Shown: positions 26,001 to 64,000, numbered from the stretch's first letter. The stretch: 64,000 nucleotides of DNA from Eledone cirrhosa (GCA_964016885.1 OZ024752.1:29388001-29452000); one strand, 5' to 3'. Translations and numbers: made by a program. The notes: generated by a model from the sequence alone, not told the origin.

Positions 26001-26139
26001 TAGAGTTTATCATGTCACCACCACTAGAGAGGTAGTGTTTATCATGTCACCAGTACTACAGTAGGTAGTGTTTATCATGACACCAGCACTACAGTAGGTA
26101 GTTTATCATGTCACCAGCACTAGAGAGGTAGAGCTTATC

Positions 26140-40139: not shown

Positions 40140-43100
40140 AGAGGTCGAGTGTATCATGTCACCAGCACTAGAGAGGTAGAGTTTATCATGTCACCAGCAC
40201 TAGAAAGGTAGAGTTTATCATGTCACCAGCACTAGAGAGGTAGAGTTTATCATGTCACCAGCACTAGACAGGTAGAGTTTATCATGTCACCAGCACTAGA
40301 GAGGTACAGTTTATCATGTCACCAGCACTAGAGAGGTAGAGTTTATCATGTCACCAATACTAGAGAGGTAAAGTTTATCATGACACCAGCAATACAGTAG
40401 GTAGAGTTTATCATGTCACCAGCACTAACGAGGTAGAGTTTATCATGTCACCAGCACTAGAGAGGTAGAGTTTATCATGTCACCAATACTAGAGAGGTAA
40501 AGTTTATCACGACACCAGCACTACAGTAGGTAGTGTTTATCATGTCACCAGCACTAGAGAGGTAGAGTTTATCATGTCACCACCACTAGAGAGGTAGTGT
40601 TTATCATGTCACCAGCACTACAGTAGGTAGTGTTTATCATGACACCAGCACTAGAGAGGTAGAGTTTATCATGTCACCAGCACTAGAGAGGTAGAGTTTA
40701 TCATGTCACCAGCACTAGAGAGGTAGAGTTTATCATGTCACCAGCACTAGAGAGGTAGAGTTTATCATGTCACCAGCAGTAGAAAGGTAGTGTTTATCAT
40801 GACACCAGCACTACAGTAGGTAGTGTTTATCATGTCACCAGCACTACAGTAGGTAGTGTTTATCATGTCACCAGCACTAGAGAGGTAGAGTTTATCATGT
40901 CACCAGCACTAGAAAGGTAGAGTTTATCATGACACCAGCACTAGAGAGGTAGAGTTTATCATGACACCAACAGTACAGTAGGTAGAGTTTATCATGACAC
41001 CAGCAGTACAGTAGGTAGAGTTTATCATGTCACCAGCAGTACAGTAGGTAGAGTTTATCATGTCACCAGCACTAGAGAGGTAGAGTTTATCATGTCACCA
41101 ACACTAGAAAGGTAGAGTTTATCATGACACCAGCACTAGAAAGGTAGAATTTATCATGTCACCAGTACTACAGTAGGTAGTGTTTATCATGACACCAGCA
41201 CTACAGTAGGTAGTTTATCATGTCACCAGCACTAGAGAGGTAGAGCTTATCATGTCACCAGCATGAGAGAGGTAGAGTTTATCATGTCACCAGCACTACA
41301 GTAGGTAGAGTTTATCATGACACCAGCACTACAGTAGGTAGTTTATCATGTCACCAGCACTAGAGGTAGAGTTTATCATGTCACCAGCACTAGAGAGGTA
41401 GAGTTTATCATGTCACCAGCACTAGAGAGGTAGAGTTTATGATGTCACCAGCACTAGAAAGGTAGAGTTTATCATGACACCAGCACTAGAGAGGTAGAGT
41501 TTATCATGACACCAACAGTACAGTAGGTAGAGTTTATCATGACACCAGCAGTACAGTAGGTAGTGTTTATCATGTCACCAGCACTAGAGAGGTAGAGTTT
41601 ATCATGACACCAGCACTAGAGAGGTAGAGTTTATCATGACACCAACAGTACAGTAGGTAGAGTTTATCATGACACCAGCACTAGAGAGGTAGAGTTTATC
41701 ATGACACCAACAGTATAGTAGGTAGAGTTTATCATGACACCAGCACTAGAGAGGTAGAGTTTATCATGACACCAACAGTACAGTAGGTAGAGTTTATCAT
41801 GACACCAGCAGTACAGTAGGTAGAGTTTATCATGTCACCAGCACTAGAGAGGTAGAGTTTATCATGACACCAGCACTAGAAAGGTAGAGTTTATCATGTC
41901 ACGAGTACTACAGTAGGTAGAGTTTATCATGACACCAGCACTAGAGAGGTAGAGTTTATCATGTCACCAGCACTAGAATGGTAGAGTTTATCATGTCACC
42001 AGCACTAGAGAGGTAGAGTTTATCATGACACCAACAGTACAGTAGGTAGTGTTTATCATGTCACCAGCACTAGAGAGGTAGAGTTTATCATGACACCAAC
42101 AGTACAGTAGGTAGAGTTTATCATGACACCAGCACTAGAAAGGTAGAGTTTATCATGTCACCAGTACTACAGTAGGTAGTGTTTATCATGTCACCAGCAC
42201 TAGAGAGGTAGAGTTTATCATGTCACCAATACTAGAGAGGTAGTGTTTATCCTGTCACCAGCACTAAAGAGGTAGTGTTTATCATGTCACCAGCACTAGA
42301 GAGGTAGAGTTTATCATGTCACCAGCACTACAGTAGGTAGAGTTTATCATGTCACCAGCACTAGAGAGGTAGAGTTTATCATGTCACCAGCACTAGAAAG
42401 GTAGAGTTTATCATGTCACCAGCACTAGAGAGGTAGTGTTTATCATGTCACCAGCACTACAGTAGGTAGTGTTTATCATGACACCAGAACTAGAGAGGTA
42501 GAGTTTATCATGTCACCAGCACTAGAGAGGTAGAGTTTATCATGTCACCAGCACTAGACAGGTAGAGTTTATCATGTCACCAGCACTAGAGAGGTAGAGT
42601 TTATCATGTCACCACCACTAGAGAGGTAGAGTTTATCATGTCACCAGCACTAGAGAGGTAGAGTTTATCATGTCACCAGCACTAGAGAGGTAGAGTTTAT
42701 CATGTCACCAATACTAGACAGGTAGAGTTTATCATGTCACCAGCACTAGACAGGTAGAGTTTATCATGTCACCAGCACTAGAGAGGTAGAGTTTATCATG
42801 TCACCAGCACTAGAGAGGTAGAGTTTATCATGTCACCAGCACTAGAGAGGTAGAGTTTATCATGTCACCAGCACTAGACAGGTAGAGTTTATCATGTCAC
42901 CAGCACTAGAGAGGTAGAGTTTATCATGTCACCAGCACTACAGTAGGTAGTGTTTATCATGTCACCAGCACTAGAGAGGTAGAGTTTATCATGTCACCAG
43001 CACTAGAGAGGTAGTGTTTATCATGTCACCAGCACTACAGTAGGTAGTGTTTATCATGACACCAGAACTAGAGAGGTAGAGTTTATCATGTCACCAGCAC

Positions 43101-45749
43101 TAGAGAGGTAGAGTTTATCATGTCACCAACACTAGACAGGTAGAGTTTATCATGTCACCAGCACTAGAGAGGTAGAGTTTATCATGTCACCAGCACTAGA
43201 GAGATAGAGTTTATCATGTCACCAGCACTAGAGAGGTAGTGTTTATCATGTCACCAGTACTACAGTAGGTAGTGTTTATCATGACACCAGCACTACAGTA
43301 GGTAGTTTATCATGTCACCAGCACTAGAGAGGTAGAGCTTATCATGTCACCAGCATGAGAGAGGTAGAGTTTATCATGTCACCAGCACTACAGTAGGTAG
43401 AGTTTATCATGTCACCAGCACTAACGAGGTAGAGTTTATCATGTCACCAGCACTAGAGAGGTAGAGTTTATCATGTCACCAATACTAGAGAGGTAAAGTT
43501 TATCACGACACCAGCACTACAGTAGGTAGTGTTTATCATGTCACCAGCACTAGAGAGGTAGAGTTTATCATGTCACCATCACTAGAGAGGTAGAGTTTAT
43601 CATGTCACCACCACTAGAGAGGTAGTGTTTATCATGTCACCAGTACTACAGTAGGTAGTGTTTATCATGACACCAGCACTACAGTAGGTAGTTTATCATG
43701 TCACCAGCACTAGAGAGGTAGAGCTTATCATGTCACCAGCATGAGAGAGGTAGAGTTTATCATGTCACCAGCACTACAGTAGGTAGAGTTTATCATGTCA
43801 CCAGCACTAGAGAGGTAGAGTTTATCATGTCACCAGCACTAGAGAGGTAGAGTTTATCATGTCACCAGCACTACAGTAGGTAGTGTTTATCATGTCACCA
43901 ATACTAGAGAGGTAAAGTTTATCATGTCACCAGTACTAGAGAGGTAGAGTTTATCATGTCACCAGCACTACAGTAGGTAGTGTTTATCATGTCACCAGCA
44001 CTAGAGAGGTAGTGTTTATCATGTCACCAGCACTACAGTAGGTAGTGTTTATCATGACACCAGCACTAGAGAGGTAGAGTTTATCATGTCACCAGCACTA
44101 GAGAGGTAGAGTTTATCATGTCACCAGCACTACAGTAGGTAGTGTTTATCATGTCACCAGCACTACAGTAGGTAGTGTTTATCATGTCACCAGCACTAGA
44201 GAGGTAGAGTTTATCATGTCACCAGCACTAGAGAGGTAGAGTTTATCATGTCACCAGCACTAGAAAGCTAGAATTTATCATGTCACCAGCACTAGAGAGG
44301 TAGTGTTTATCATGACACCAGCACTACAGTAGGTAGTGTTTATCATGACACCAGCACTACAGTAGGTAGTTTATCATGTCACCAGCACTAGAGAGGTAGA
44401 GCTTATCATGTCACCAGCATGAGAGAGGTAGAGTTTATCATGTCACCAGCACTACAGTAGGTAGAGTTTATCATGACACCAGCACTAGAGAGGTCGAGTG
44501 TATCATGTCACCAACACTACAGTAGGTAGTTTATCATGTCACCAATACTAGAGAGGTAAAGTTTATCACGACACCAGCACTACAGTAGGTAGTGTTTATC
44601 ATGTCACCAGCACTAGAGAGGTAGAGTTTATCATGTCACCACCACTAGAGAGGTAGTGTTTATCATGTCACCAGCACTACAGTAGGTAGTGTTTATCATG
44701 ACACCAGCACTAGAGAGGTAGAGTTTATCATGTCACCAGCACTAGAGAGGTAGAGTTTATCATGTCACCAGCAGTAGAAAGGTAGTGTTTATCATGACAC
44801 CAGCACTACAGTAGGTAGTGTTTATCATGTCACCAGCACTACAGTAGGTAGTGTTTATCATGTCACCAGCACTAGAGAGGTAGAGTTTATCATGTCACCA
44901 GCACTAGAGAGGTAGAGTTTATCATGTCACCAGCAGTAGAAAGGTAGTGTTTATCATGACACCAGCACTACAGTAGGTAGTGTTTATCATGTCACCAGCA
45001 CTACAGTAGGTAGAGTTTATCATGACACCAGCAGTACAGTAGGTAGAGTTTATCATGTCACCAGCAGTACAGTAGGTAGAGTTTATCATGTCACCAGCGC
45101 TAGAGAGGTAGAGTTTATCATGTCACCAACACTAGAAAGGTAGAATTTATCATGTCACCAGCACTAGAGAGGTAGTGTTTATCATGACACCAGCACTACA
45201 GTAGGTAGTGTTTATCATGACACCAGCACTACAGTAGGTAGTTTATCATGTCACCAGCACTAGAGAGGTAGAGCTTATCATGTCACCAGCATGAGAGAGG
45301 TAGAGTTTATCATGTCACCAGCACTACAGTAGGTAGAGTTTATCATGACACCAGCACTAGAGAGGTCGAGTGTATCATGTCACCAACACTACAGTAGGTA
45401 GTTTATCATGTCACCAGCACTAGAGGTAGAGTTTATCATGTCACCAGCACTAGAGAGGTAGAGTTTATCATGTCACCAGCACTAGAAAGGTAGAGTTTAT
45501 CATGTCACCAGCACTAGAGAGGTAGAGTTTATCATGTCACCAGCACTAGACAGGTAGAGTTTATCATGTCACCAGCACTAGACAGGTAGAGTTTATCATG
45601 TCACCAGCACTAGAGAGGTACAGTTTATCATGTCACCAGCACTAGAGAGGTAGAGTTTATCATGTCACCAATACTAGAGAGGTAAAGTTTATCATGACAC
45701 CAGCAATACAGTAGGTAGAGTTTATCATGTCACCAGCACTAACGAGGTA

Positions 45750-48700
45750 GAGTTTATCATGTCACCAGCACTAGAGAGGTAGAGTTTATCATGTCACCAA
45801 TACTAGAGAGGTAAAGTTTATCACGACACCAGCACTACAGTAGGTAGTGTTTATCATGTCACCAGCACTAGAGAGGTAGAGTTTATCATGTCACCACCAC
45901 TAGAGAGGTAGTGTTTATCATGTCACCAGCACTACAGTAGGTAGTGTTTATCATGACACCAGCACTAGAGAGGTAGAGTTTATCATGTCACCAGCACTAG
46001 AGAGGTAGAGTTTATCATGTCACCAGCAGTAGAAAGGTAGTGTTTATCATGACACCAGCACTACAGTAGGTAGTGTTTATCATGTCACCAGCACTACAGT
46101 AGGTAGTGTTTATCATGTCACCAGCACTAGAGAGGTAGAGTTTATCATGTCACCAGCACTAGAGAGGTAGAGTTTATCATGTCACCAGCACTAGAAAGGT
46201 AGAGTTTATCATGACACCAGCACTAGAGAGGTAGAGTTTATCATGACACCAACAGTACAGTAGGTAGAGTTTATCATGACACCAGCAGTACAGTAGGTAG
46301 AGTTTATCATGTCACCAGCAGTACAGTAGGTAGAGTTTATCATGTCACCAGCACTAGAGAGGTAGAGTTTATCATGTCACCAACACTAGAAAGGTAGAGT
46401 TTATCATGACACCAGCACTAGAAAAGTAGAATTTATCATGTCACCAGTACTACAGTAGGTAGTGTTTATCATGACACCAGCACTACAGTAGGTAGTTTAT
46501 CATGTCACCAGCACTAGAGAGGTAGAGCTTATCATGTCACCAGCATGAGAGAGGTAGAGTTTATCATGTCACCAGCACTACAGTAGGTAGAGTTTATCAT
46601 GACACCAGCACTACAGTAGGTAGTTTATCATGTCACCAGCACTAGAGGTAGAGTTTATCATGTCACCAGCACTAGAGAGGTGGAGTTTATCATGTCACCA
46701 ACACTAGAGAGGTAGAGTTTATGATGTCACCAGCACTAGAAAGGTAGAGTTTATCATGACACCAGCACTAGAGAGGTAGAGTTTATCATGACACCAACAG
46801 TACAGTAGGTAGAGTTTATCATGACACCAGTAGTACAGTAGGTAGTGTTTATCATGTCACCAGCACTAGAGAGGTAGAGTTTATCATGACACCAGCACTA
46901 GAGAGGTAGAGTTTATCATGACACCAACAGTACAGTAGGTAGAGTTTATCATGACACCAGCACTAGAGAGGTAGAGTTTATCATGACACCAACAGTACAG
47001 TAGGTAGAGTTTATCATGACACCAGCACTAGAGAGGTAGAGTTTATCATGACACCAGCACTACAGTAGGTAGTGTTTATCATGTCACCAGCACTAGAGAG
47101 GTAGAGTTTATCATGTCACCAGCACTACAGTAGGTAGAGTTTATCATGTCACCAGCACTAGAGAGGTAGACTTTATCATGACACCAGCACTACAGTAGGT
47201 AGTGTTTATCATGACACCAGCACTAGAGAGGTAGAGTTTATCATGTCACCAGTACTACAGTAGGTAGTTTATCATGTCACCAGCACTAGAGAGGTAGAGT
47301 TTATCATGTCACCAGCACTACAGTAGGTAGTGTTTATCATGACACCAGCACTAGAGAGGTAGAGTTTATCATGTCACCAGCACTAGAGAGGTAGAGTTTA
47401 TCATGTCACCAGCACTACAGTAGGTAGAGTTTATCATGTCACCAGCACTAGAGAGGTAGACTTTATCATGACACCAGCACTACAGTAGGTAGTGTTTATC
47501 ATGACACCAGCACTAGAGAGGTAGAGTTTATCATGTCACCAGTACTACAGTAGGTAGTTTATCATGTCACCAGCACTAGAGGTAGAGTTTATCATGTCAC
47601 CAGCACTAGAGAGGTAGAGTTTATCATGTCACCAGCACTAGAAAGGTAGAGTTTATCATGTCACCAGCACTAGAGAGGTAGAGTTTATCATGTCACCAGC
47701 ACTAGACAGGTAGAGTTTATCATGTCACCAGCACTAGACAGGTAGAGTTTATCATGTCACCAGCACTAGAGAGGTACAGTTTATCATGTCACCAGCACTA
47801 GAGAGGTAGAGTTTATCATGTCACCAATACTAGAGAGGTAAAGTTTATCACGACACCAGCACTACAGTAGGTAGTGTTTATCATGTCACCAGCACTAGAG
47901 AGGTAGAGTTTATCATGTCACCACCACTAGAGAGGTAGTGTTTATCATGTCACCAGCACTACAGTAGGTAGTGTTTATCATGACACCAGCACTAGAGAGG
48001 TAGAGTTTATCATGTCACCAGCACTAGAGAGGTAGAGTTTATCATGTCACCAGCAGTAGAAAGGTAGTGTTTATCATGACACCAGCACTACAGTAGGTAG
48101 TGTTTATCATGTCACCAGCACTACAGTAGGTAGTGTTTATCATGTCACCAGCACTAGAGAGGTAGAGTTTATCATGTCACCAGCACTAGAGAGGTAGAGT
48201 TTATCATGTCACCAGCACTAGAAAGGTAGAGTTTATCATGACACCAGCACTAGAGAGGTAGAGTTTATCATGACACCAACAGTACAGTAGGTAGAGTTTA
48301 TCATGACACCAGCAGTACAGTAGGTAGAGTTTATCATGTCACCAGCAGTACAGTAGGTAGAGTTTATCATGTCACCAGCACTAGAGAGGTAGAGTTTATC
48401 ATGTCACCAACACTAGAAAGGTAGAATTTATCATGTCACCAGCACTAGAGAGGTAGTGTTTATCATGACACCAGCACTACAGTAGGTAGTGTTTATCATG
48501 ACACCAGCACTACAGTAGGTAGTTTATCATGTCACCAGCACTAGAGAGGTAGAGCTTATCATGTCACCAGCATGAGAGAGGTAGAGTTTATCATGTCACC
48601 AGCACTACAGTAGGTAGAGTTTATCATGACACCAGCACTAGAGAGGTCGAGTGTATCATGTCACCAACACTACAGTAGGTAGTTTATCATGTCACCAGCA

Positions 48701-51700
48701 CTAGAGGTAGAGTTTATCATGTCACCAGCACTAGAGAGGTAGAGTTTATCATGTCACCAGCACTAGAAAGGTAGAGTTTATCATGTCACCAGCACTAGAG
48801 AGGTAGAGTTTATCATGTCACCAGCACTAGACAGGTAGAGTTTATCATGTCACCAGCACTAGACAGGTAGAGTTTATCATGTCACCAGCACTAGAGAGGT
48901 AGAGTTTATCATGTCACCAGCACTAGAGAGGTAGAGTTTATCATGTCACCAATACTAGAGAGGTAAAGTTTATCATGACACCAGCAATACAGTAGGTAGA
49001 GTTTATCATGTCACCAGCACTAACGAGGTAGAGTTTATCATGTCACCAGCACTAGAGAGGTAGATTTTATCATGTCACCAATACTAGAGAGGTAAAGTTT
49101 ATCACGACACCAGCACTACAGTAGGTAGTGTTTATCATGTCACCAGCACTAGAGAGGTAGAGTTTATCATGTCACCACCACTAGAGAGGTAGTGTTTATC
49201 ATGTCACCAGCACTACAGTAGGTAGTGTTTATCATGACACCAGCACTAGAGAGGTAGAGTTTATCATGTCACCAGCACTAGAGAGGTAGAGTTTATCATG
49301 TCACCAGCAGTAGAAAGGTAGTGTTTATCATGACACCAGCACTACAGTAGGTAGTGTTTATCATGTCACCAGCACTACAGTAGGTAGTGTTTATCATGTC
49401 ACCAGCACTAGAGAGGTAGAGTTTATCATGTCACCAGCACTAGAGAGGTAGAGTTTATCATGTCACCAGCACTAGAAAGGTAGAGTTTATCATGACACCA
49501 GCACTAGAGAGGTAGAGTTTATCATGACACCAACAGTACAGTAGGTAGAGTTTATCATGACACCAGCAGTACAGTAGGTAGAGTTTATCATGTCACCAGC
49601 AGTACAGTAGGTAGAGTTTATCATGTCACCAGCACTAGAGAGGTAGAGTTTATCATGTCACCAACACTAGAAAGGTAGAGTTTATCATGACACCAGCACT
49701 AGAAAAGTAGAATTTATCATGTCACCAGTACTACAGTAGGTAGTGTTTATCATGACACCAGCACTACAGTAGGTAGTTTATCATGTCACCAGCACTAGAG
49801 AGGTAGAGCTTATCATGTCACCAGCATGAGAGAGGTAGAGTTTATCATGTCACCAGCACTACAGTAGGTAGAGTTTATCATGACACCAGCACTACAGTAG
49901 GTAGTTTATCATGTCACCAGCACTAGAGGTAGAGTTTATCATGTCACCAGCACTAGAGAGGTAGAGTTTATCATGTCACCAACACTAGAGAGGTAGAGTT
50001 TATGATGTCACCAGCACTAGAAAGGTAGAGTTTATCATGACACCAGCACTAGAGAGGTAGAGTTTATCATGACACCAACAGTACAGTAGGTAGAGTTTAT
50101 CATGACACCAGTAGTACAGTAGGTAGTGTTTATCATGTCACCAGCACTAGAGAGGTAGAGTTTATCATGACACCAGCAGTAGAGAGGTAGAGTTTATCAT
50201 GACACCAACAGTACAGTAGGTAGAGTTTATCATGACACCAGCACTAGAGAGGTAGAGTTTATCATGACACCAACAGTACAGTAGGTAGAGTTTATCATGA
50301 CACCAGCACTAGAGAGGTAGAGTTTATCATGACACCAGCACTACAGTAGGTAGTGTTTATCATGTCACCAGCACTAGAGAGGTAGAGTTTATCATGTCAC
50401 CAGCACTACAGTAGGTAGAGTTTATCATGTCACCAGCACTAGAGAGGTAGACTTTATCATGACACCAGCACTACAGTAGGTAGTGTTTATCATGACACCA
50501 GCACTAGAGAGGTAGAGTTTATCATGTCACCAGTACTACAGTAGGTAGTTTATCATGTCACCAGCACTAGAGAGGTAGAGTTTATCATGTCACCAGCACT
50601 ACAGTAGGTAGTGTTTATCATGACACCAGCACTAGAGAGGTAGAGTTTATCATGTCACCAGCACTAGAGAGGTAGAGTTTATCATGTCACCAGTACTACA
50701 GTAGGTAGAGTTTATCATGTCACCAGCACTAGAGAGGTAGAGTTTATCATGTCACCAATACTAGAGAGGTAAAGTTTATCACGACACCAGCACTACAGTA
50801 GGTAGTGTTTATCATGTCACCAGCACTAGAGAGGTAGAGTTTATCATGTCACCACCACTAGAGAGGTAGTGTTTATCATGTCACCAGCACTACAGTAGGT
50901 AGTGTTTATCATGACACCAGCACTAGAGAGGTAGAGTTTATCATGTCACCAGCACTAGAGAGGTAGAGTTTATCATGTCACCAGCAGTAGAAAGGTAGTG
51001 TTTATCATGACACCAGCACTACAGTAGGTAGTGTTTATCATGTCACCAGCACTACAGTAGGTAGTGTTTATCATGTCACCAGCACTAGAGAGGTAGAGTT
51101 TATCATGTCACCAGCACTAGAGAGGTAGAGTTTATCATGTCACCAGCACTAGAAAGGTAGAGTTTATCATGACACCAGCACTAGAGAGGTAGAGTTTATC
51201 ATGACACCAACAGTACAGTAGGTAGAGTTTATCATGACACCAGCAGTACAGTAGGTAGAGTTTATCATGTCACCAGCAGTACAGTAGGTAGAGTTTATCA
51301 TGTCACCAGCACTAGAGAGGTAGAGTTTATCATGTCACCAACACTAGAAAGGTAGAGTTTATCATGACACCAGCACTAGAAAAGTAGAATTTATCATGTC
51401 ACCAGTACTACAGTAGGTAGTGTTTATCATGACACCAGCACTACAGTAGGTAGTTTATCATGTCACCAGCACTAGAGAGGTAGAGCTTATCATGTCACCA
51501 GCATGAGAGAGGTAGAGTTTATCATGTCACCAGCACTACAGTAGGTAGAGTTTATCATGACACCAGCACTACAGTAGGTAGTTTATCATGTCACCAGCAC
51601 TAGAGGTAGAGTTTATCATGTCACCAGCACTAGAGAGGTAGAGTTTATCATGTCACCAACACTAGAGAGGTAGAGTTTATGATGTCACCAGCACTAGAAA

Positions 51701-54700
51701 GGTAGAGTTTATCATGACACCAGCACTAGAGAGGTAGAGTTTATCATGACACCAACAGTACAGTAGGTAGAGTTTATCATGACACCAGTAGTACAGTAGG
51801 TAGTGTTTATCATGTCACCAGCACTAGAGAGGTAGAGTTTATCATGACACCAGCACTAGAGAGGTAGAGTTTATCATGACACCAACAGTACAGTAGGTAG
51901 AGTTTATCATGACACCAGCACTAGAGAGGTAGAGTTTATCATGACACCAACAGTACAGTAGGTAGAGTTTATCATGACACCAGCACTAGAGAGGTAGAGT
52001 TTATCATGACACCAGCACTACAGTAGGTAGTGTTTATCATGTCACCAGCACTAGAGAGGTAGAGTTTATCATGTCACCAGCACTACAGTAGGTAGAGTTT
52101 ATCATGTCACCAGCACTAGAGAGGTAGACTTTATCATGACACCAGCACTACAGTAGGTAGTGTTTATCATGACACCAGCACTAGAGAGGTAGAGTTTATC
52201 ATGTCACCAGTACTACAGTAGGTAGTTTATCATGTCACCAGCACTAGAGAGGTAGAGTTTATCATGTCACCAGCACTACAGTAGGTAGTGTTTATCATGA
52301 CACCAGCACTAGAGAGGTAGAGTTTATCATGTCACCAGCACTAGAGAGGTAGAGTTTATCATGTCACCAGTACTACAGTAGGTAGAGTTTATCATGTCAC
52401 CAGCACTACAGTAGGTAGAGTTTATCATGTCACCAGTACTACAGTAGGTAGTGTTTATCATGTCACCAGCACTACAGTAGGTAGTGTTTATCATGTCACC
52501 AGCACTAGAGAGGTAGATTTTATCATGTCACCAGCACTACAGTAGGTAGTGTTTATCATGACACCAGCACTACAGTAGGTAGAGTTTATCATGTCACCAA
52601 TACTACAGTAGGTAGTGTTTATCATGTCAACAGCACTAGAGAGGTAGATTTTATCATGTCACCAGCACTAGAGAGGTAGTGCTTATCATGTCACCAGCAC
52701 TACAGTAGGTAGTGTTTATCATGACACCAGCACTAGAGAGGTAGATTTTATCATGTCACCAGCACTAGAAAGGTAGTGCTTATCATGTCACCAGCACTAC
52801 AGTAGGTAGTGTTTATCATGACACCAGCACTAGAGAGGTAGTGTTTATCATGTCACCAGCACTAGAGAGGTAGAGTTTATCATGTCACCAGCACTACAGT
52901 AGGTAGAGTGTATCATGTCACCAGCACTAGAGAGGTAGAGTTTATCATGACACCAGCACTAGAGAGGTAGAGTTTATCATGTCACCAGCACTAGAGAGGT
53001 AGAGTTTATAATGTCACCAGCACTAGAAAGGTAGAGTTTATCATGACACCAGCACTAGAGAGGTAGAGTTTATCATGACACCAACAGTACAGTAGGTAGA
53101 GTTTATCATGACACCAGCAGTACAGTAGGTAGAGTTTATCATGTCACCAGCACTAGAGAGGTAGAATTTATCATGTCACCAGTACTACAGTAGGTAGTGT
53201 TTATCATGACACCAGCACTACAGTAGGTAGTTTATCATGTCACCAGCACTAGAGAGGTAGAGCTTATTATGTCACCAGCATGAGAGAGGTAGAGTTTATC
53301 ATGTCACCAGCACTACAGTAGGTAGAGTTTATCATGACACCAGCACTAGAGAGGTCGAGTGTATCATGTCACCAACACTACAGTAGGTAGTTTATCATGT
53401 CACCAGCACTAGAGGTAGAGTTTATCATGTCACCAGCACTAGAGAGGTAGAGTTTATCATGTCACCAGCACTAGAAAGGTAGAGTTTATCATGTCACCAG
53501 CACTAGAGAGGTAGAGTTTATCATGTCACCAGCACTAGACAGATAGAGTTTATCATGTCACCAGCACTAGACAGGTAGAGTTTATCATGTCACCAGCACT
53601 AGAGAGGTACAGTTTATCATGTCACCAGCACTAGAGAGGTAGAGTTTATCATGTCACCAATACTAGAGAGGTAAAGTTTATCATGACACCAGCAATACAG
53701 TAGGTAGAGTTTATCATGTCACCAGCACTAACGAGGTAGAGTTTATCATGTCACCAGCACTAGAGAGGTAGAGTTTATCATGTCACCAATACTAGAGAGG
53801 TAAAGTTTATCACGACACCAGCACTACAGTAGGTAGTGTTTATCATGTCACCAGCACTAGAGAGGTAGAGTTTATCATGTCACCACCACTAGAGAGGTAG
53901 TGTTTATCATGTCACCAGCACTACAGTAGGTAGTGTTTATCATGACACCAGCACTAGAGAGGTAGAGTTTATCATGTCACCAGCACTAGAGAGGTAGAGT
54001 TTATCATGTCACCAGCAGTAGAAAGGTAGTGTTTATCATGACACCAGCACTACAGTAGGTAGTGTTTATCATGTCACCAGCACTACAGTAGGTAGTGTTT
54101 ATCATGTCACCAGCACTAGAGAGGTAGAGTTTATCATGTCACCAGCACTAGAAAGGTAGAGTTTATCATGACACCAGCACTAGAGAGGTAGAGTTTATCA
54201 TGACACCAACAGTACAGTAGGTAGAGTTTATCATGACACCAGCAGTACAGTAGGTAGAGTTTATCATGTCACCAGCAGTACAGTAGGTAGAGTTTATCAT
54301 GTCACCAGCACTAGAGAGGTAGAGTTTATCATGTCACCAACACTAGAAAGGTAGAGTTTATCATGACACCAGCACTAGAAAAGTAGAATTTATCATGTCA
54401 CCAGTACTACAGTAGGTAGTGTTTATCATGACACCAGCACTACAGTAGGTAGTTTATCATGTCACCAGCACTAGAGAGGTAGAGCTTATCATGTCACCAG
54501 CATGAGAGAGGTAGAGTTTATCATGTCACCAGCACTACAGTAGGTAGAGTTTATCATGACACCAGCACTACAGTAGGTAGTTTATCATGTCACCAGCACT
54601 AGAGGTAGAGTTTATCATGTCACCAGCACTAGAGAGGTAGAGTTTATCATGTCACCAGCACTAGAGAGGTAGAGTTTATGATGTCACCAGCACTAGAAAG

Positions 54701-55400
54701 GTAGAGTTTATCATGACACCAGCACTAGAGAGGTAGAGTTTATCATGACACCAACAGTACAGTAGGTAGAGTTTATCATGACACCAGTAGTACAGTAGGT
54801 AGTGTTTATCATGTCACCAGCACTAGAGAGGTAGAGTTTATCATGACACCAGCACTAGAGAGGTAGAGTTTATCATGACACCAACAGTACAGTAGGTAGA
54901 GTTTATCATGACACCAGCACTAGAGAGGTAGAGTTTATCATGACACCAACAGTACAGTAGGTAGAGTTTATCATGACACCAGCACTAGAGAGGTAGAGTT
55001 TATCATGACACCAGCACTACAGTAGGTAGTGTTTATCATGTCACCAGCACTAGAGAGGTAGAGTTTATCATGTCACCAGCACTACAGTAGGTAGAGTTTA
55101 TCATGTCACCAGCACTAGAGAGGTAGACTTTATCATGACACCAGCACTACAGTAGGTAGTGTTTATCATGACACCAGCACTAGAGAGGTAGAGTTTATCA
55201 TGTCACCAGTACTACAGTAGGTAGTTTATCATGTCACCAGCACTAGAGAGGTAGAGTTTATCATGTCACCAGCACTACAGTAGGTAGTGTTTATCATGAC
55301 ACCAGCACTAGAGAGGTAGAGTTTATCATGTCACCAGCACTAGAGAGGTAGAGTTTATCATGTCACCAGTACTACAGTAGGTAGAGTTTATCATGTCACC
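45750..55400. repeat. Four copies of a ~1.3-1.7 kb satellite block at uneven spacing (3281, 1677 and 2999 bp)
   Basis: gaaaagtagaa occurs at 46426, 49707, 51384 and 54383. ccagtagtacag occurs at 46831, 50112, 51789 and 54788, with the same offsets. Boundaries are approximate. Confidence 0.85.
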
Positions 55401-58400
55401 AGCACTACAGTAGGTAGTGTTTATCATGTCACCAGCACTACAGTAGGTAGTGTTTATCATGTCACCAGCACTAGAGAGGTAGATTTTATCATGTCACCAG
55501 CACTACAGTAGGTAGTGTTTATCATGACACCAGCACTACAGTAGGTAGAGTTTATCATGTCACCAGCACTACAGTAGGTAGTGTTTATCATGACACCAGC
55601 ACTAGAGAGGTAGATTTTATCATGTCACCAGCACTAGAAAGGTAGTGCTTATCATGTCACCAGCACTACAGTAGGTAGTGTTTATCATGACACCAGCACT
55701 AGAGAGGTAGTGTTTATGATGTCACCAGCACTAGAGAGGTAGAGTTTATCAAGTCACCAGCACTACAGTAGGTAGAGTGTATCATGTCACCAGCACTAGA
55801 GAGGTAGAGTTTATCATGACACCAGCACTAGAGAGGTAGAGTTTATCATGTCACCAGCACTAGAGAGGTAGAGTTTATAATGTCACCAGCACTACAGTAG
55901 GTAGAGTTTATCATGTCACCAGCACTAGAAAGGTAGAGTTTATCATGACACCAGCACTAGAGAGGTAGAGTTTATCATGACACCAACAGTACAGTAGGTA
56001 GAGTTTATCATGACACCAGCAGTACAGTAGGTAGAGTTTATCATGTCACCAGCACTAGAGAGGTAGAATTTATCATGTCACCAGTACTACAGTAGGTAGT
56101 GTTTATCATGACACCAGCACTACAGTAGGTAGTTTATCATGTCACCAGCACTAGAGAGGTAGAGCTTATTATGTCACCAGCATGAGAGAGGTAGAGTTTA
56201 TCATGTCACCAGCACTACAGTAGGTAGAGTTTATCATGACACCAGCACTAGAGAGGTCGAGTGTATCATGTCACCAGCACTAGAGGTAGAGTTTATCATG
56301 TCACCAGCACTAGAGAGGTAGAGTTTATCATGTCACCAGCACTACAGTAGGTAGAGTTTATCATGACACCACCACTAGAGAGGTAGAGTGTATCATGTCA
56401 CCAGCACTAGAGAGGTAGAGTTTATCATGACACCAGCACTAGAGAGGTAGAGTTTATCATGTCACCAGCACTAGAGAGGTAGAGTTCATCATGTCACCAG
56501 CACTAGAGAGGTAGAGTTTATCATGTCACCAGCACTAGACAGGTAGAGTTTATCATGTCACCAGCACTAGAGAGGTAGAGTTTATCATGTCACCAGCACT
56601 ACAGTAGGTAGAATTTATCATGTCACCAGCACTAGAGAGGTAGAGTTTATCATGTCACCAGCAGTACAGTAGGTAGTTTATAATGTCACCAGCACTAGAG
56701 AGGTAGAGCTTATCATGACACCAGCACTAGAGAGGTAGAGTTTATCATGACACCAACAGTACAGTAGGTAGAGTTTATCATGACACCAGCACTAGAGAGG
56801 TAGAGTTTATCATGACACCAGCACTACAGTAGGTAGTGTTTATCATGTCACCAGCACTAGAGAGGTAGAGTTTATCATGTCACCAGCACTACAGTAGGTA
56901 GAGTTTATCATGTCACCAGCACTAGAGAGGTAGAGTTTATCATGACACCAGCACTACAGTAGGTAGTGTTTATCATGACACCAGCACTAGAGAGGTAGAG
57001 TTTATCATGTCACCAGTACTACAGTAGGTAGTTTATCATGTCACCAGCACTAGAGAGGTAGAGTTTATCATGTCACCAGCACTACAGTAGGTAGTGTTTA
57101 TCATGACACCAGCACTAGAGAGGTAGAGTTTATCATGTCACCAGCACTAGAGAGGTAGAGTTTATCATGTCACCAGTACTACAGTAGGTAGAGTTTATCA
57201 TGTCACCAGCACTACAGTAGGTAGAGTTTATCATGTCACCAGTACTACAGTAGGTAGTGTTTATCATGTCACCAGCACTACAGTAGGTAGTGTTTATCAT
57301 GACACCAGCACTAGAGAGGTAGAGTTTATCATGTCACCAGTACTACAGTAGGTAGTTTATCATGTCACCAGCACTAGAGAGGTAGAGTTTATCATGTCAC
57401 CAGCACTACAGTAGGTAGTGTTTATCATGACACCAGCACTAGAGAGGTAGAGTTTATCATGTCACCAGCACTAGAGAGGTAGATTTTATCATGTCACCAG
57501 CACTACAGTAGGTAGTGTTTATCATGACACCAGCACTACAGTAGGTAGAGTTTATCATGTCACCAGTACTACAGTAGGTAGTGTTTATCATGTCACCAGC
57601 ACTACTGTAAGTAGTGTTTATCATGACACCAGCACTAGAGAGGTAGAGTTTATCATGTCACCAGTACTACAGTAGGTAGATTTTATCATGTCACCAGCAC
57701 TAGAGAGGTAGTGCTTATCATGTCACCAGCACTACAGTAGGTAGTGTTTATCATGACACCAGCACTAGAGAGGTAGATTTTATCATGTCACCAGCACTAG
57801 AAAGGTAGTGCTTATCATGTCACCAGCACTACAGTAGGTAGTGTTTATCATGACACCAGCACTAGAGAGGTAGTGTTTATCATGTCACCAGCACTAGAGA
57901 GGTAGAGTTTATCATGTCACCAGCACTACAGTAGGTAGAGTGTATCATGTCACCAGCACTAGAGAGGTAGAGTTTATCATGACACCAGCACTAGAGAGGT
58001 AGAGTTTATCATGTCACCAGCACTAGAGAGGTAGAGTTTATAATGTCACCAGCACTAGAAAGGTAGAGTTTATCATGACACCAGCACTAGAGAGGTAGAG
58101 TTTATCATGACACCAACAGTACAGTAGGTAGAGTTTATCATGACACCAGCAGTACAGTAGGTAGAGTTTATCATGTCACCAGCACTAGAGAGGTAGAATT
58201 TATCATGTCACCAGCACTACAGTAGGTAGTGTTTATCATGACACCAGCACTACAGTAGGTAGTTTATCATGTCACCAGCACTAGAGAGGTAGAGCTTATT
58301 ATGTCACCAGCATGAGAGAGGTAGAGTTTATCATGTCACCAGCACTACAGTAGGTAGAGTTTATCATGACACCAGCACTAGAGAGGTCGAGTGTATCATG

Positions 58401-60329
58401 TCACCAGCACTAGAGGTAGAGTTTATCATGTCACCAGCACTAGAGAGGTAGAGTTTATCATGTCACCAGCACTACAGTAGGTAGAGTTTATCATGACACC
58501 ACCACTAGAGAGGTAGAGTGTATCATGTCACCAGCACTAGAGAGGTAGAGTTTATCATGACACCAGCACTAGAGAGGTAGAGTTTATCATGTCACCAGCA
58601 CTAGAGAGGTAGAGTTCATCATGTCACCAGCACTAGAGAGGTAGAGTTTATCATGTCACCAGCACTAGACAGGTAGAGTTTATCATGTCACCAGCACTAG
58701 AGAGGTAGAGTTTATCATGTCACCAGCACTACAGTAGGTAGAATTTATCATGTCACCAGCACTAGAGAGGTAGAGTTTATCATGTCACCAGCAGTACAGT
58801 AGGTAGTTTATAATGTCACCAGCACTAGAGAGGTAGAGCTTATCATGACACCAGCACTAGAGAGGTAGAGTTTATCATGTCACCAGCACTAGACAGGTAG
58901 AGTTTATCATGACACCAGCACTAGAGAGGTAGAGTTTATCATGTCACCAGCACTCCAGTAGGTAGTTTATAATGTCACCAGCACTACAGTAGGTAGTGTT
59001 TATCATGTAACCAGCAGTACAGTAGGTAGTATTTATCATGTCACCAGCACTACAGCAGGTAGTTTTTCATGTCACCAGCACTAGAGAGGTAGAGTTTATT
59101 ATGACACCAGCACTAGAAATGTAGAGTTTATCATGACACCAGCACTAGAGAGGTAGAGTTTATCATTACACCAGCACTAGAGAGGTAGAGTTTATCGTGA
59201 TACCAGCACTAGAGTATGTAGTTTATCATGTCACCAGTACTAGAGAGGTAGAGTTTATTATGTCACCAGCGCTAGAGAGGTAGAGTTTATCATGTCACCA
59301 GCACTAGAGAGGTAGAGTTTATCATGTCACCAGCACTAGAGAGGTAGAGTTTATCATGTCACCAGCACTAGACAGGTAGAGTTTATCATGTCACCAGCAC
59401 TAGAGAGGTAGAGTTTATCATGTCACCAGCAGTACAGTAGGTAGAGTTTATCATGTCACTAGCACTAGAGAGGTAGAGTTTATCATGTCACCAGCAGTAC
59501 AGTAGGTAGTTTATAATGTCACCAGCAGTAGAGAGGTAGAGCTTATCATGACACCAGCACTACAGTAGGTAGTGTTTATCATGTTACCAGCACTACAGTA
59601 GGTAGTGCTTATCATGACACCAGCACTACAGTAGGTACAGTTTATCATGTCACCAGCAGTACAGTAGGTAGAGTTTATCATGTCACCAGCACTAGAGAGG
59701 TAGAGTTTATCATGTCACTAGCACTCCAGTAGGTAGTTTATAATGTCACCAGCACTACAGTAGGTAGTGTTTATCATGTTACCAGCACTACAGTAGGTAG
59801 TGCTTATCATGACACCAGCACTACAGTAGGTACAGTTTATCATGTCACCAGCAGTACAGTAGGTAGAGTTTATCATGTCACCAGCACTAGAGAGGTAGAG
59901 TTTATCATGACACCAGCACTAGAGAGGTAGAGTTTATCATGTCACCAGCACTACAGCAGGTAGTTTATCATGTCACCAGCACTAGAGAGGTAGAGTTTAT
60001 TATGACACCAGCACTAGAGATGTAGAGTTTATCATGACACCAGCACTAGAGAGGTAGAGTTTATTATTACACCAGCACTAGAGAGGTAGAGTTTATCGTG
60101 ATACCAGCACTAGAGTATGTAGTTTATCATGTCACCAGCACTAGAGAGGTAGAGTTTATCATGTCACCAGCACTAGAGAGGTAGAGTTTATCATGTCACC
60201 AGCACTAGAGAGGTAGATTTTATCATGTCACCAGCACTAACGAGGTAGAGTTTATCATGACACCAGCACTAGAGGTTGCCTTGTTCTTGACAAGTCCTTT
60301 CTACCTAACTTGTCTTTGTTTGATTGTCA

Positions 60330-60383
60330 ACTGCTTTACAGAATGTACTGGATGCATTTTATTGTGGCATCAACACTAGAAGG
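60330..60383. repeat. Single diverged copy of the motif amplified in the 48-bp minisatellite, ending in satellite-like sequence
   Basis: 60330-60371 aligns without gaps to accactttacattgtggactgggtgctttttgttgtgacacc at 31/42 identity. It is followed by aacactagaagg (compare satellite agcactagaaagg). Confidence 0.75.
60358..60363 (-). terminator. Candidate distal polyadenylation signal (AATAAA) for CIAO1
   Basis: tttatt on the + strand, ~750 bp downstream of the stop codon and ~80 bp from the satellite edge. Motif match only. Confidence 0.3.
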
Positions 60384-60439
60384 CTTGTCTTGCCTACTAC
60401 AATGCTAAAGAAACCTCTGTTCCATGCAATCTGTGATTG

Positions 60440-60745
60440 TGAAGAGGAGAAACAGTGTAACAGGATGATAGAGTGAGAGATGGTGTGTCAGAGCATGACT
60501 AATGTTACTAATAGTGATATGTCATGGTGAGAGAGAGAGTAAGTGGGATAAGTACCATAGAGAAGAAGATAGAGTGAGAAATGTCAGTGAAGGGTATCAA
60601 TCAGATGTGGGTGATGGTAATTGAAAGTGGTAAATGTTAGTAAAAAGTCTCACAGAGGTTGAGAGAGAGAGAGGGAGTGAGAATATGGCCAGATTCAGTG
60701 TGAAGATGATGAGTGTGGTAGTGGTAATGGAAGTGAAACAGATGA
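60440..60745. repeat. Purine-rich low-complexity stretch with decayed (GA)n and (GTG/GAT)n microsatellites
   Basis: gagagagag runs near 60530 and 60661, many gtg/gat triplets and few C on the + strand. Confidence 0.55.
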
Positions 60746-60814
60746 TAACAACAGCAATATTATATATAGCTGTTTCAAGTACTGCTACTTATTTCCAAGA
60801 ACTAAGTCAAATAA

Positions 60815-60862
60815 ACAAGATGGAATGAAGTGTCTTGTCCAAAGAAAAGGAATTTGAACACA
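60815..60862 (-). mobile_element. Possible decayed tRNA-derived SINE fragment
   Basis: The minus strand reads gttcaaattcc (B-box-like) and then tttggacaagacacttcattcca, resembling the ttgggcaagacactt segment that often follows the tRNA head of animal SINEs. Short, and recognised from memory. Confidence 0.35.
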
Positions 60863-60985
60863 AGTGCATCTAGTCGGTCGTTTTATCTCCATCTCCACTT
60901 TGTATGAATTCATGTGTGATTAGATAAAATATATGGAATGTATGAATGAGATGGGATCGCTCTGACATGTCTGGTCTCAGATCTT

Positions 60986-61040
60986 GACAACCTGTCCAAC
61001 CCATGGCAGTATGGAAAGCAGACATAAAAACGATGATGAT
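60986..61040 (+). mobile_element. 5'-truncated 3'-terminal fragment of the same retroelement tail as at 61778-61846, in opposite orientation
   Basis: The reverse complement of 60986-61016 matches 61816-61846 at 27/31, and 19/20 over catgggttggaca(a/g)gttgtc. It ends in gatgatgat like the other copy. Confidence 0.75.
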
Positions 61041-61110
61041 ATTATCTAGTTGGTTTTTTTTTTTACAAGTAATTAGATAATAAAAAAAAAAAATCTGTTT
61101 TTAAAGCAAT

Positions 61111-61116
61111 TTTAAT
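61111..61116 (-). terminator. Candidate proximal polyadenylation signal (ATTAAA) overlapping the CIAO1 stop codon
   Basis: The minus strand reads TGATTAAA, then CA ~14 nt downstream (61097-61096) and a T12 tract (61093-61082). Confidence 0.35.
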
Positions 61117-61726
61117 CATTCTTGAGGTAAATTCCATAGTTTTACTAAACCATCATCACTACAAGATGCTAACAAACCAGGTATTTTAGGGTTCCACGAA
61201 ACACAATTTACATCCTGTAAATGAGCTGATTTCGCTATGGCAGTTAGTGTAAAAGATGGTTGATTTTTCTCTGAATTAGGTTCTTCGTGAAACACCCGAA
61301 TACAGTCATCCCCACAAGATGTAGCAATATCCCCAGTAAGATGATCCCAATCAACAGAATATATTGTCCTAGAATGGTAACCTGACAGAGTACATACACA
61401 TTTCCATGCACAATCGTCTTCATTTGTTGGTAAACCCAAGTTATTGTCTGACTGGTAACACTGCCATATGCGAATCGTTTTATCATCACTGCACGAGACA
61501 AGTCGGTCGCCTGTTTTATCAAAGCAACTCATCCACACGGTAGACTGGTGGCTATCCAAGGAGGCTAACACTTGCCAATCATCGGTACTTTCTTTTATAA
61601 ACTTGATGGTGTCATCGTAACTACTGGATACAACAATGTCTTGATGTGGGTGCCACGTGACATGTTTGACATCTTGGTTGTGGCAGTTCATCACGCTAGC
61701 ACATTCAAAATCTTCATCTGCTGTAA
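61116..61726 (-). CDS. CIAO1: Terminal coding exon of cytosolic iron-sulfur assembly protein CIAO1/Cia1 (WD40 repeats); upstream exons lie outside the window
   Basis: The translation contains family-typical motifs HNQDVKHVTWHP, SSSYDDTIK, HQSTVW, LVSCSDDKTIRIW, WKCVCTLSGYHSRTIY, IATSCGDDCIRVF and AHLQDVNCVSWNPK..GLLASCSDDG. The frame extends upstream of the ORF call as (V)TADEDFECASVMNCH to an AG acceptor at 61728-61727. The exon is 611 nt = 2 + 203 codons (phase 1 intron), with the TGA stop at 61118-61116. Confidence 0.95.
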
Positions 61727-61754
61727 CTAGAATTTGTGAAAAAGAAAAAAGAAA
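61727..61754 (-). promoter_or_regulatory. 3' splice site (polypyrimidine tract plus AG) of the CIAO1 intron
   Basis: The minus strand reads tttcttttttctttttcacaaattctag|TTACAGCAG. Protein similarity starts at this point. Confidence 0.85.
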
Positions 61755-61794
61755 TATATATATATATACACATATATATCATCATCATCATCAT
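61754..61794. repeat. Compound microsatellite, (AT)n followed by (ATC)5-6
   Basis: atatatatatatatacacatatatatcatcatcatcatcat. The (ATC)n part reads (GAT)n on the minus strand, the probable retroelement tail. Confidence 0.9.
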
Positions 61795-62640
61795 ATTACC
61801 GTATTACGGCCATTCTTCCATGCTAGCATGGGTTGGACAAGTTGTCCTGTTGTTGGCAATGCTAGGTCAAGTGACCATGCCTTGCTTATACAGAACTGAT
61901 TTTGGCTTGGTTTCTACAGCTGGATGCCCTTCCTAGTACTGGGTGCTTGTTGTTGTGACACCTTCATGACCACTTTACATTGTGGGCTGGGTGCTTTTTG
62001 TTGTGACACCTTCATGACCACTTTACATTGTGGACTGGGTGCTTTTTGTTGTGACACCTTCATGACCACTTTACATTGTGGGCTGGGTGCTTTTTGTTGT
62101 GACACCTTCATGACCACTTTACATTGTGGGCTGGGTGCTTTTTGTTGTGACACCTTCATGACCACTTTACATTGTGGACTGGGTGCTTTTTGTTGTGACA
62201 CCTTCATGACCACTTTACATTGTGGGCTGGGTGCTTTTTGTTGTGACACCTTCATGACCACTTTACATTGTGGGCTGGGTGCTTTTTGTTGTGACACCTT
62301 CATGACCACTTTACATTGTGGACTGGGTGCTTTTTGTTGTGACACCTTCATGACCTCTTTACATTGTGGGCTGGGTGCTTTTCGTCGTGATACCTTCATG
62401 ACCACTTTACCATGTGGACTGGATGCTTTTTGCCATGACACCTTTCCAAAAACTTTACATTGTGGGCTGGGTGCTTTTTATCGTGACACCTTCACAACCA
62501 CTTTAGAGTGTGGGCTGGGTGCTTTTTGTCGTGACACCAGCACAACCACTTTATAGTGTGGACTGGGTGCTTTTTGTCGTGACACCTACACGACCACTTT
62601 ACAGTGGGAGGGTGGGGTGGGGCATACAGTATATATGCTT
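61778..62640 (-). mobile_element. Probable 3' UTR and tail of the adjacent LINE (or a partner SINE), containing the 48-bp minisatellite
   Basis: It lies directly 3' of the LINE C-terminal coding remnant on the same strand and ends in a palindrome plus (GAT)n tail. A second copy of the tail at 60986-61040 shows it is a dispersed repeat. Continuity with the LINE is inferred. Confidence 0.6.
61938..62608. repeat. 48-bp minisatellite, ~14 units
   Basis: Unit gacaccttcatgaccactttacattgtgg(g/a)ctgggtgctttttgttgt. The ga(c/t)acc anchor falls every 48 bp from 61957 to 62581 with no indels. Confidence 0.98.
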
Positions 62641-64000
62641 CGGCTTGTGCTCGTGGGAAGTTGCATCTTCTGTATTACTGCATATCACCAGAGATCTCGG
62701 TCCTGTGTCATCGCCTTTGAGGTGCAATTGGGCAAGGTCGGCTTTTATCACTTCAACCCAAGTCTTTCTGGGTCTCCCCACTCCAAGGCTTTCATTGACT
62801 TTGAGCGCTCTGCACCTTTTATGCAGCTGTCATCCATCATACACATCACATATCCATACCAACGCAATCTCCTCTCTTGCACACAACATTTGATTCCTCT
62901 TATGCTTAGTTTCTCTCTCAGTTCGTTTATGCTTTGCCATTTACGTATATTACAATTATACATCCATCGAAGCAGGCAAGCTTCATTTCTTTCCAACTGC
63001 CGCAAGTCTTCTGCACACAGCGCCCATGTCTAACTACCATGCAACATTGCTGTTTGTATGCATGCATCATACAGTCTGCCTTTCATTTTGAGGGAAAAGC
63101 CCTTTGTAGCTAGCAGTGGTAGTAGCTCCTTGAACTTCTTCCATCCTGTTCTTACCCTGGTTACTGTACTTTCAGAACACCCACCTCAGCTGCTAATTTG
63201 GTCACCCAGGTAGCAGAAGTTGTCTACTGTTTCTACTGAGCCCTCCCAGAATTTGGTAGTGCTTGTTTCCTGAGGTCATTTGCTGCTTATTTTCCCGATG
63301 CAACTGCTACATGTAAAGCCTACATTCTTAGCTAAACTTCCTGAGATCCCACTACATCTGTGTACCCATAGTTTGCATATGGGGCAGAGGATGGAGTTTC
63401 TACCTACACCTTTCCTATTTACCGAGTAAGGCCATTCCCTCGAGGGGATCTGTGTTCTGTTTTCTTTTCTACTTTCTAGGACCTTAGTCTTTGCCAGGTT
63501 GACTTTAAAACCCCTTTCTCGGCCCTCCATGTTTGGAATTTCTTCTCTAGTTCTACCATAGATTCAGCTATGAGTTTAAGATGATCTGTGTACAGAGAAG
63601 TTCCTATAGGCATCTGGTCTTAAACTCCTCTGTTATAGCCTGCAAAACAATAATAAACAACTTGTATGCTAAATTCTTCACTATAGTCATTGTTAATCTA
63701 ACTTTGCTAACTGCTCCTCTATACATGGTTTGTACAGTCTTCATAAGTCACTCATATACTCTAGTTTTCTAAGAGCCCACCAGATTATGGCATTGGGCAC
63801 TCTGCCAAAAGCATTCTCCAGATCAACAAATGTTAGGTAGAGAGGCTTACTTTTAGCTACGTACTTTTCCAGTAACTGCCTCACAATTTACCCGGTCCCT
63901 AAACAACTGTGCTATGACTCTTTCTGTTACTTTCATTACCTAGTTCATCAGTTTCATACCTCTATAGTTTCCTCTATCTAGTGGATCTCCTTTACCCTTG
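62640..64000 (-). mobile_element. Decayed non-LTR retrotransposon (RTE-like LINE): reverse transcriptase and C-terminal remnant, continuing past the right edge
   Basis: Minus-strand fragments in the expected order: KGKGDPLDRGNYRGMKL (window end), LYLTFVDLENAFGRVP..IWWALRKL (~63843-63765), YTDH in place of YADD (~63592-63581), GFKVNLAKTKVL, a Cys/His cluster SILCPICKLWVHRCSGI, RRLRWYGYV and GRPRKTW. It carries stops and frameshifts, and the QG..LSP segment appears deleted. Confidence 0.9.

What the first reader, a model, noticed from the sequence alone, without database searches (positions are those of the whole stretch)
60241..62608. One retroelement 3'-UTR motif appears to have seeded two different tandem arrays around CIAO1
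Seen: (1) A diverged unit of the 48-bp minisatellite (62525-62543, tttgtcgtgacaccagcac) matches the core of the 60-kb satellite (tttatcatgacaccagcac) at 17/19, both differences being A/G transitions, in the same orientation. (2) The single copy at 60330-60383 bridges the two: 31/42 gap-free identity to the 48-mer, then aacactagaagg like the satellite. Established: satellites can arise from segments of transposable elements. Inference: this LINE/SINE 3'-UTR segment is prone to tandem amplification and is seen here at three scales (1 copy, ~14 copies, ~1,900 copies) with different unit boundaries.
Basis: partly seen in the sequence, partly recalled or inferred. Interest (0 to 1): 0.75.

Follow-up and report, generated by a model that had tools for sequence, protein, structure and literature searches.

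The report
Giant satellite grown inside retrotransposon tail
A 151,000-letter block of a 32-letter repeat sits in the middle of one decayed jumping-gene tail and matches the piece it interrupts, so it most likely grew there in place; this is an unusually large and clean example of a known way in which satellite DNA is born.

Summary
The 32/33-bp array is 151,025 bp (4,686 units, unbroken, single-locus) and lies inside one old copy of a dispersed retroelement 3' tail: its left flank aligns to family positions 11-237, its right flank to 204-390, and the monomer is the overlap (27/32 gap-free; 0 of 2,000 shuffles as good). Two corrections: the 'single copy' at 60330-60383 is the same host copy continuing (a second internal repeat), and the 48-mer is an inherited variable repeat of a sister RTE-like LINE, mostly 1-3 units, expanded here to 14. 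Genome-wide the segment is heavily tandem (3,639 of 11,439 motif copies versus 4 of 2,946 for a control), with other arrays of 25, 30, 41 and 44-48 bp, but about 93% is the 45-54-bp class; a special tendency to form new arrays is not shown (3/75 vs 0/72, p=0.25). No link to CIAO1 function was found. Known kind: reptile SINE-derived satellites, Ogre 3'-UTR satellites. This scan noted 48-bp satellites from this kind of tail elsewhere in this genome before.

The parts
1..60276 (.). Right 60 kb of the 32/33-bp satellite array (whole array G000:C12:29297252-29448276, 151,025 bp, 4,686 units); monomer = about positions 207-238 of the host element tail
   Evidence: (no N, longest anchor gap 62 nt)
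60277..60418 (-). Right-hand remainder of the host retroelement copy, colinear with family positions 239-390 (112/141 identical); strand given as inferred element sense
60330..60383 (-).
   Evidence: alignment; a second motif 107-119 nt after the first in 5 of 24 family copies, 89-137 nt in 8 of 24
61116..61730 (-). CIAO1 last coding exon (WD40); first coding exon lies beyond the window at about L039:1460-1863
61778..61938 (-). 3' end of an RTE-like LINE in the CIAO1 intron: (ATG)n tail and tail-proximal UTR
   Evidence: (5,020 candidates, 40 scored)
61939..62603 (-). 48-bp variable tandem repeat in that LINE's 3' UTR, 14 units; units 2-8 carry the same 3 differences from the family form, the last unit differs by 1
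62599..64000 (-). Broken reverse-transcriptase ORF of the same LINE (continues about 0.5 kb past the window)
   Evidence: RVT_1 in 3 of 5 frames tested from 80-85% identical relatives; no RT family in the window's own 10 short fragments

Best explanation
The 151-kb array sits inside one decayed retroelement 3' tail and matches the 32-nt piece it interrupts, so it most likely grew in place by a local duplication followed by repeated DNA-level expansion. Shown: host tail on the left, host continuation on the right, monomer equal to the overlap, array confined to this locus. Inferred: the old copy (about 18-20% from the family majority) duplicated positions about 207-238 with at most 1-3 nt of end homology; slippage and unequal exchange then multiplied units and copied 1-7-kb blocks. 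The 48-bp array 1.7 kb away is a separate event: a sister RTE-like LINE carries 1-3 copies of a 48-nt unit in its 3' UTR, and some inserted copies expand it afterwards. The two arrays look alike because both subfamilies share this stretch of tail. Inferred reason for the skew along the tail: duplications 140-300 nt from the end are tolerated by active elements and spread with them, whereas the end next to the tail is likely needed for copying.
For: Left flank to family 11-237 and right flank to 204-390; identities 142/172 and 112/141, like the 82% mean of the 18 training copies. Monomer score 57 against a shuffle maximum of 39, 0 of 2,000; 27/32 gap-free. An exact 31-mer occurs 1,276 times in the genome and 1,276 times in this locus. 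Two letters that differ from the family are in the junction unit and nearly fixed in the array: G at position 210 in 4,511 of 4,685 units (family T in 16 of 17), family G at 220 in 2 of 4,686. Exact 1-kb repeats recur at 1.0-6.8 kb distances, with no regular higher-order period. 48-bp units in 18 sister-family copies: 15 have 1-3, three have 4, 5 and 13; two other copies have 35 and 41. Eleven 48-bp arrays differ by 3.2% within and 26.5% between arrays, so they expanded or were homogenised after insertion.
Against: No pre-expansion allele was seen, so the order of events is inferred. The breakpoint is uncertain by a few bases: one family copy (L066) reads like the monomer further than the host's own right junction does. 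The spacer 60277-60335 alone beat shuffles in only 4 of 24 family copies, since many copies end or diverge there. The training copies were found with the left flank, which favours that flank's fit (the right flank and shuffles are independent of this). Whether the host family is a LINE tail or a SINE was not settled: no RT lies beside this copy. Shared variants within arrays cannot tell late expansion from later homogenisation of an RT-made array.
Confidence: 0.85

Rival explanations
1. The segment has an intrinsic tendency (hairpin, internal repeat or a bound protein) to form new tandem arrays again and again; this is the reader's strong reading.
For: Units with different breakpoints all include the segment: 32/33 (here), 30, 36/41, 22/25, 61, 89, 111. 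13 of 88 complex arrays in 1.11 Mb come from positions 176-245 and none from 15-130 (75 and 72 copies; Fisher p 1.4e-4). The family majority folds into a stem-loop over 197-230.
Against: 10 of the 13 sample arrays and about 3,390 of 3,639 genome-wide pairs belong to the 45-54-bp class with one shared junction phase. Without it: 3 of 75 vs 0 of 72, p 0.25. The control motif also formed tandem pairs at 2 loci. Folding z-scores of four real copies were -0.76 to +0.28, both strands fold alike over 17 copies (-6.2 vs -5.9), and best self-matches at offsets 32 and 48 are 4/10 and 3/10.
Confidence: 0.25
2. The first duplication was made by the reverse transcriptase slipping back on its RNA during insertion; only the later growth was at DNA level.
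For: The 48-nt junction has the same phase in several subfamilies, as expected if it arose once in an active element and was then copied; such an origin during element replication is hypothesised for Ogre UTR repeats (PMC7004042, Discussion).
Against: For the 32-mer, the monomer carries letters that differ from the family and the unit is found at one locus only, which fits duplication in an already diverged copy.
Confidence: 0.15
3. A satellite that arose elsewhere was inserted into, or recombined with, this element copy by homology.
For: The monomer resembles thousands of dispersed copies (11,439 exact 14-mers), so homologous integration is possible in principle.
Against: No second locus holds the 31-mer; both junctions are in register with the host.
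Confidence: 0.05
4. The array or its length is an assembly artefact.
For: Short-read contigs cannot span it; no record laid bridged the junction at length.
Against: Units vary (32-mers 93.9% pairwise), no exact 4-kb repeat, no N. In run X1 summed contig depth on the array end is 72,153 against 9.8 on unique DNA (not a copy number, and X1 may be the source sample).
Confidence: 0.04

Closest known systems
SINE-derived satellites (sSat) of squamate reptiles, PMC10702118 (abstract, passages and Discussion read)
   Same: Tandem repeats of part of a retroposon with element sequence left at one or both ends; long loci more uniform; one lizard locus with over 1,200 monomers.
   Different: Here the source is a non-LTR 3' tail, the unit is 32 nt, the array has 4,686 units at one locus with both flanks kept, and it lies mid-contig (29.3-29.4 Mb of 50.4 Mb) beside a gene rather than near an end.
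Satellites from 3'-UTR tandem repeats of Ogre LTR retrotransposons (PisTR-A; nine of eleven Lathyrus satellites), PMC7004042 (abstract and Discussion read)
   Same: A hypervariable 3' UTR carries short arrays that the element disperses and that occasionally expand; this fits the 48-bp class closely.
   Different: Non-LTR element in an animal; the 32-bp unit is not a repeat carried by the family but private to one copy.
Alu-, B1- and MaLR-derived minisatellites, as listed in the review PMC9659126 (passages only)
   Same: Minisatellite-length units amplified from part of a dispersed retroelement.
   Different: Satellite-scale length here; the primary papers were not read.
Octopus RTE LINEs such as RTE-2_OV, PMC9115989 (passages only)
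   Same: Single ORF with endonuclease, RT and zinc finger, and a microsatellite in the 3' UTR; relatives of this RT have endonuclease + RT + PHD-type finger in about 1,050 aa, and one of the named hits is from Octopus bimaculoides at 63%.
   Different: Sequence identity with RTE-2_OV was not tested; the passages read mention no 48-bp repeat ('tandem' 0 occurrences).

Membership tests
Transposon-derived satellite DNA | Monomer homologous to part of a dispersed element beyond chance | tested here: met
   27/32 gap-free; 0 of 2,000 shuffles
Transposon-derived satellite DNA | Element sequence in register at the array ends | tested here: met
   Both junctions
Transposon-derived satellite DNA | Long, contiguous, homogenised head-to-tail array | tested here: met
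   151,025 bp, 4,686 units, 32-mers 96.7% to their consensus
Transposon-derived satellite DNA | Heterochromatic or centromeric location | not testable with these tools
   No chromatin data
Ogre-type 3'-UTR tandem repeat (for the 48-mer, works-like only) | Short array carried in the 3' UTR of many element copies, with occasional expansion | tested here: met
   1-3 units in 15 of 18 copies; 13, 14, 35, 41 in others; lies between ORF end and tail
Ogre-type 3'-UTR tandem repeat (for the 48-mer, works-like only) | Host is an LTR (Ty3/gypsy Tat/Ogre) element | tested here: not met
   RT matches R2 and L1 ORF2 proteins; element ends in a microsatellite tail
Non-LTR retrotransposon (intronic element 61778-64000) | Non-LTR type RT upstream of a 3' UTR and simple-repeat tail | tested here: met
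   RVT_1 in relatives, PDB hits R2/L1, tail seen directly
RTE clade | RT groups with RTE elements in a tree | not tested
   No named clade references were available in the calls; the label rests on recalled features and on the domain layout
Host element of the big array: LINE tail or SINE | RT ORF or RNA-derived head upstream of the tail | tested here: inconclusive
   Shares tail with the LINE (alignment L013/L066); similarity ends near 60418 and the search with 60277-61110 gave no upstream body

The most novel reading that the evidence does not exclude
One 60-nt stretch of a very common retrotransposon tail is a recurrent satellite seed in this genome: it has yielded several large, locus-private arrays with different units (151 kb of 32/33 bp; at least 70 kb of 25 bp; at least 41 kb of 48 bp; about 18 kb of 44/47 bp), because the sequence itself favours duplication and growth. 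The genome would then hold hundreds of replicate 'experiments' showing which units and places become satellites.
Probability: 0.25. Interest if true: 0.62.

Novelty: new member of a known kind. Interest (0 to 1): 0.42.

Why it matters
Most satellites have lost the traces of their origin. Here the parent copy survives on both sides of a 151-kb array, so the first duplicated unit can be read to within a few bases. With many other arrays from the same stretch, from 2 units to thousands, the genome lets one ask why a few seeds grow to satellite size while most stay short. It also puts a large array 840 bp behind an iron-sulfur assembly gene, a place to test effects on neighbours. No function is shown.

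Tried and rejected
Hairpin-driven duplication: the family majority folds, but four real copies are no better than shuffles and neither strand is favoured; inconclusive to negative. Built-in direct repeats at the used spacings: not found; the best self-match (8/10 at offset 26) is a period seen in no array. Regular higher-order repeat in the big array: none (best lag 0.089 against 0.064 baseline). Coding role of the 48-mer's open frames: they arise because 48 is a multiple of 3; not pursued. Pfam on the window's own RT fragments: no RT family in 10 fragments. Target-site duplication of the intronic LINE: looked at, none identified. Expression: no RNA holder listed. Run X5 (organism B, share 0.07) covers only repeat parts at 90% likeness; not used. 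Run X6 (RAD-seq, other sample, same species label) has a few reads with array-type variants (5 reads, 3 starts, for the 33-mer insertion): weak, no length. Junctions of the other large arrays were mostly not reached: the script stopped with an error before the C1:110 Mb and C1:57.7 Mb ends were aligned, and the 25-bp array's one end seen matched only by the 14-mer, so its origin from this element is likely, not shown. Literature: seven searches listed no paper on satellites from cephalopod LINE tails; PMC13282606 has no occurrence of 'satellite' at a word start (passages); PMC12628747 and PMC5786205 seen as passages only. No supplements were read; repeat libraries in them could hold these families.

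Full report
Observation. The window is 60.3 kb of a 32/33-bp array, then unique DNA, a CIAO1 exon, and a LINE with a 48-bp array of 13.9 units. The 17/19 is a best case (best unit, minority variant), yet joint shuffles reached it in 1 of 500 trials. The exon at 61119-61724 (-) is CIAO1 (E 2e-94 to PDB 3fm0), with the first coding exon just beyond the window.

The big array. The window is G000:C12:29388001-29452000. Fetching leftwards put the start at 29297252. The whole array is 151,025 bp, 4,686 units, without N or interruption; 32-mers are 93.9% alike pairwise; exact 1-kb repeats recur at 1.0-6.8 kb and there is no regular higher-order period. An exact 31-mer occurs 1,276 times in the genome, all on one strand, and 1,276 times in this locus: the satellite is single-locus in the assembly.

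Its origin. The 180 bases left of the first unit are the tail end of a dispersed element; a search found 39 other places among 40 scored of 274 candidates, and 24 were fetched. A majority line was built from 18 of the 24 (six left out: two with arrays, four partial). The left flank aligns to positions 11-237 and the right flank (window 60244-60418) to 204-390; they overlap at the monomer. Identities outside the monomer are 142/172 and 112/141, similar to the 82% of the training copies. The commonest monomer matches 207-238 at 27/32 without gaps and beats 2,000 of 2,000 shuffles. Two letters that differ from the family are in the junction unit and almost fixed in the array. So the array interrupts one copy, in register at both ends. 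Against: the 59-nt spacer alone was significant in only 4 of 24 copies.

The 48-mer. It lies between the ORF end and the (ATG)n tail of a LINE on the minus strand in the CIAO1 intron. Relatives 80-85% identical carry RVT_1, match R2 and L1 proteins, and their homologues have endonuclease, RT and a finger domain in one ORF of about 1,050 aa. RTE is the likely clade, from recalled features; no tree was built. The animal is likely an octopus (one named hit, plus recall). Among 18 other copies, 15 have 1-3 units and three have 4, 5 and 13 (an earlier, stricter count undercounted some); two further copies hold 35 and 41. Eleven 48-bp arrays differ by 3.2% inside and 26.5% between arrays, so each grew or was homogenised after insertion. 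This subfamily and the host family share the tail end and the motif but differ between.

Is the segment special? In 111 stretches of 10 kb taken at fixed steps, 13 of 88 complex arrays (period 20 or more, 2.5 or more copies, entropy 1.75 or more) came from positions 176-245 and none from 15-130, with 75 and 72 element copies covering the two (p 1.4e-4). Genome-wide, a motif 14-mer has a twin 24-54 nt away in 3,639 of 11,439 cases, a control 14-mer in 4 of 2,946. These counts are inflated by long arrays; by place, the first 100 rows cover 23 loci in 235 Mb, against 2 loci for the control in the whole genome. Only 250 pairs have spacing 18-44. Of the 100 listed, 15 are a 36/41-bp array present twice, 11 a 30-bp array of 53 units that starts inside a host-family copy, 70 a 22/25-bp array, and 4 are shortened units in 47/48-bp arrays. 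Sampling shows at least 70 kb for the 25-mer, at least 41 kb for a 48-mer and about 18 kb for a 44/47-mer (continuity and most junctions not seen). So the segment feeds many arrays, mainly through one inherited unit. Leaving that class out gives 3 of 75 against 0 of 72 (p 0.25). A hairpin in the majority line was not supported in real copies, and no strong internal repeat marks offsets 32 or 48.

Mechanism. Shown: position inside one copy, identity of the monomer, single locus, block duplications. Inferred: one local duplication with little end homology in an old copy, then slippage and unequal exchange (established for tandem arrays, from my own knowledge). Inferred: the part of the tail 140-300 nt from the end tolerates duplications in active elements, so these spread, while the end is constrained. 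Position around CIAO1 needs no special cause: the sample held 96 copies in 1.11 Mb.

Comparison. The same kind is described for reptile SINEs, including loci with both element ends and one with over 1,200 units (PMC10702118), and for Ogre 3' UTRs (PMC7004042); reviews list LINE untranslated regions as satellite sources (PMC12628747, PMC9659126; passages). Seven searches listed no cephalopod case. Earlier notes of this scan report 48-bp and other LINE-derived satellites in this genome.

Verdict. Real, ordinary in kind, unusual in size and clarity. New member of a known kind; interest 0.42.

Noticed in passing
L039:2339-2577 (G000:C12, about 0.5 kb upstream of the CIAO1 start): A third array from the same segment, 46 bp x 5.2, preceded by two partial tail copies.
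   Followed up: partly
G000:C3:186260596 to at least 186331000: 25-bp (with 22-bp) array of at least 70 kb holding the same 14-nt motif; likely a deletion derivative, tail-side junction not seen.
   Followed up: partly
G000:C1:110060001-110101625 and C1:57.678-57.697 Mb: Large 48-bp (at least 41 kb) and 44/47-bp (about 18 kb) arrays from the same segment.
   Followed up: partly
G000:C1:219.78 and 219.80 Mb; C1:205.29 and 205.63 Mb: Pairs of near-identical motif arrays with shared flanks or units, suggesting segmental duplications.
   Followed up: no
window 60358-60363: The host element's second repeat gives an AATAAA on the CIAO1 strand, 750 nt after the stop; the only such hexamer between the array and the stop apart from one ATTAAA at 61111. 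Use not tested.
   Followed up: no
window 61110-61728: A 1,269-nt contig of run X4 matches the CIAO1 exon exactly and continues off the window near the splice site, as a spliced transcript would; the run's kind is not on record.
   Followed up: no
window 60931-61042: Another dispersed repeat of about 110 bp in the CIAO1 3' region.
   Followed up: no
L090-L167, L175-L207: Several 10-kb sample stretches are wholly unrelated satellite (25, 26, 55 bp); complex arrays fill 99 kb of 1.11 Mb.
   Followed up: no
L183:3970-4420 and L274:4689-4919: A 111/112-bp unit with the same layout at two loci, likely another subfamily with its own built-in duplication.
   Followed up: no
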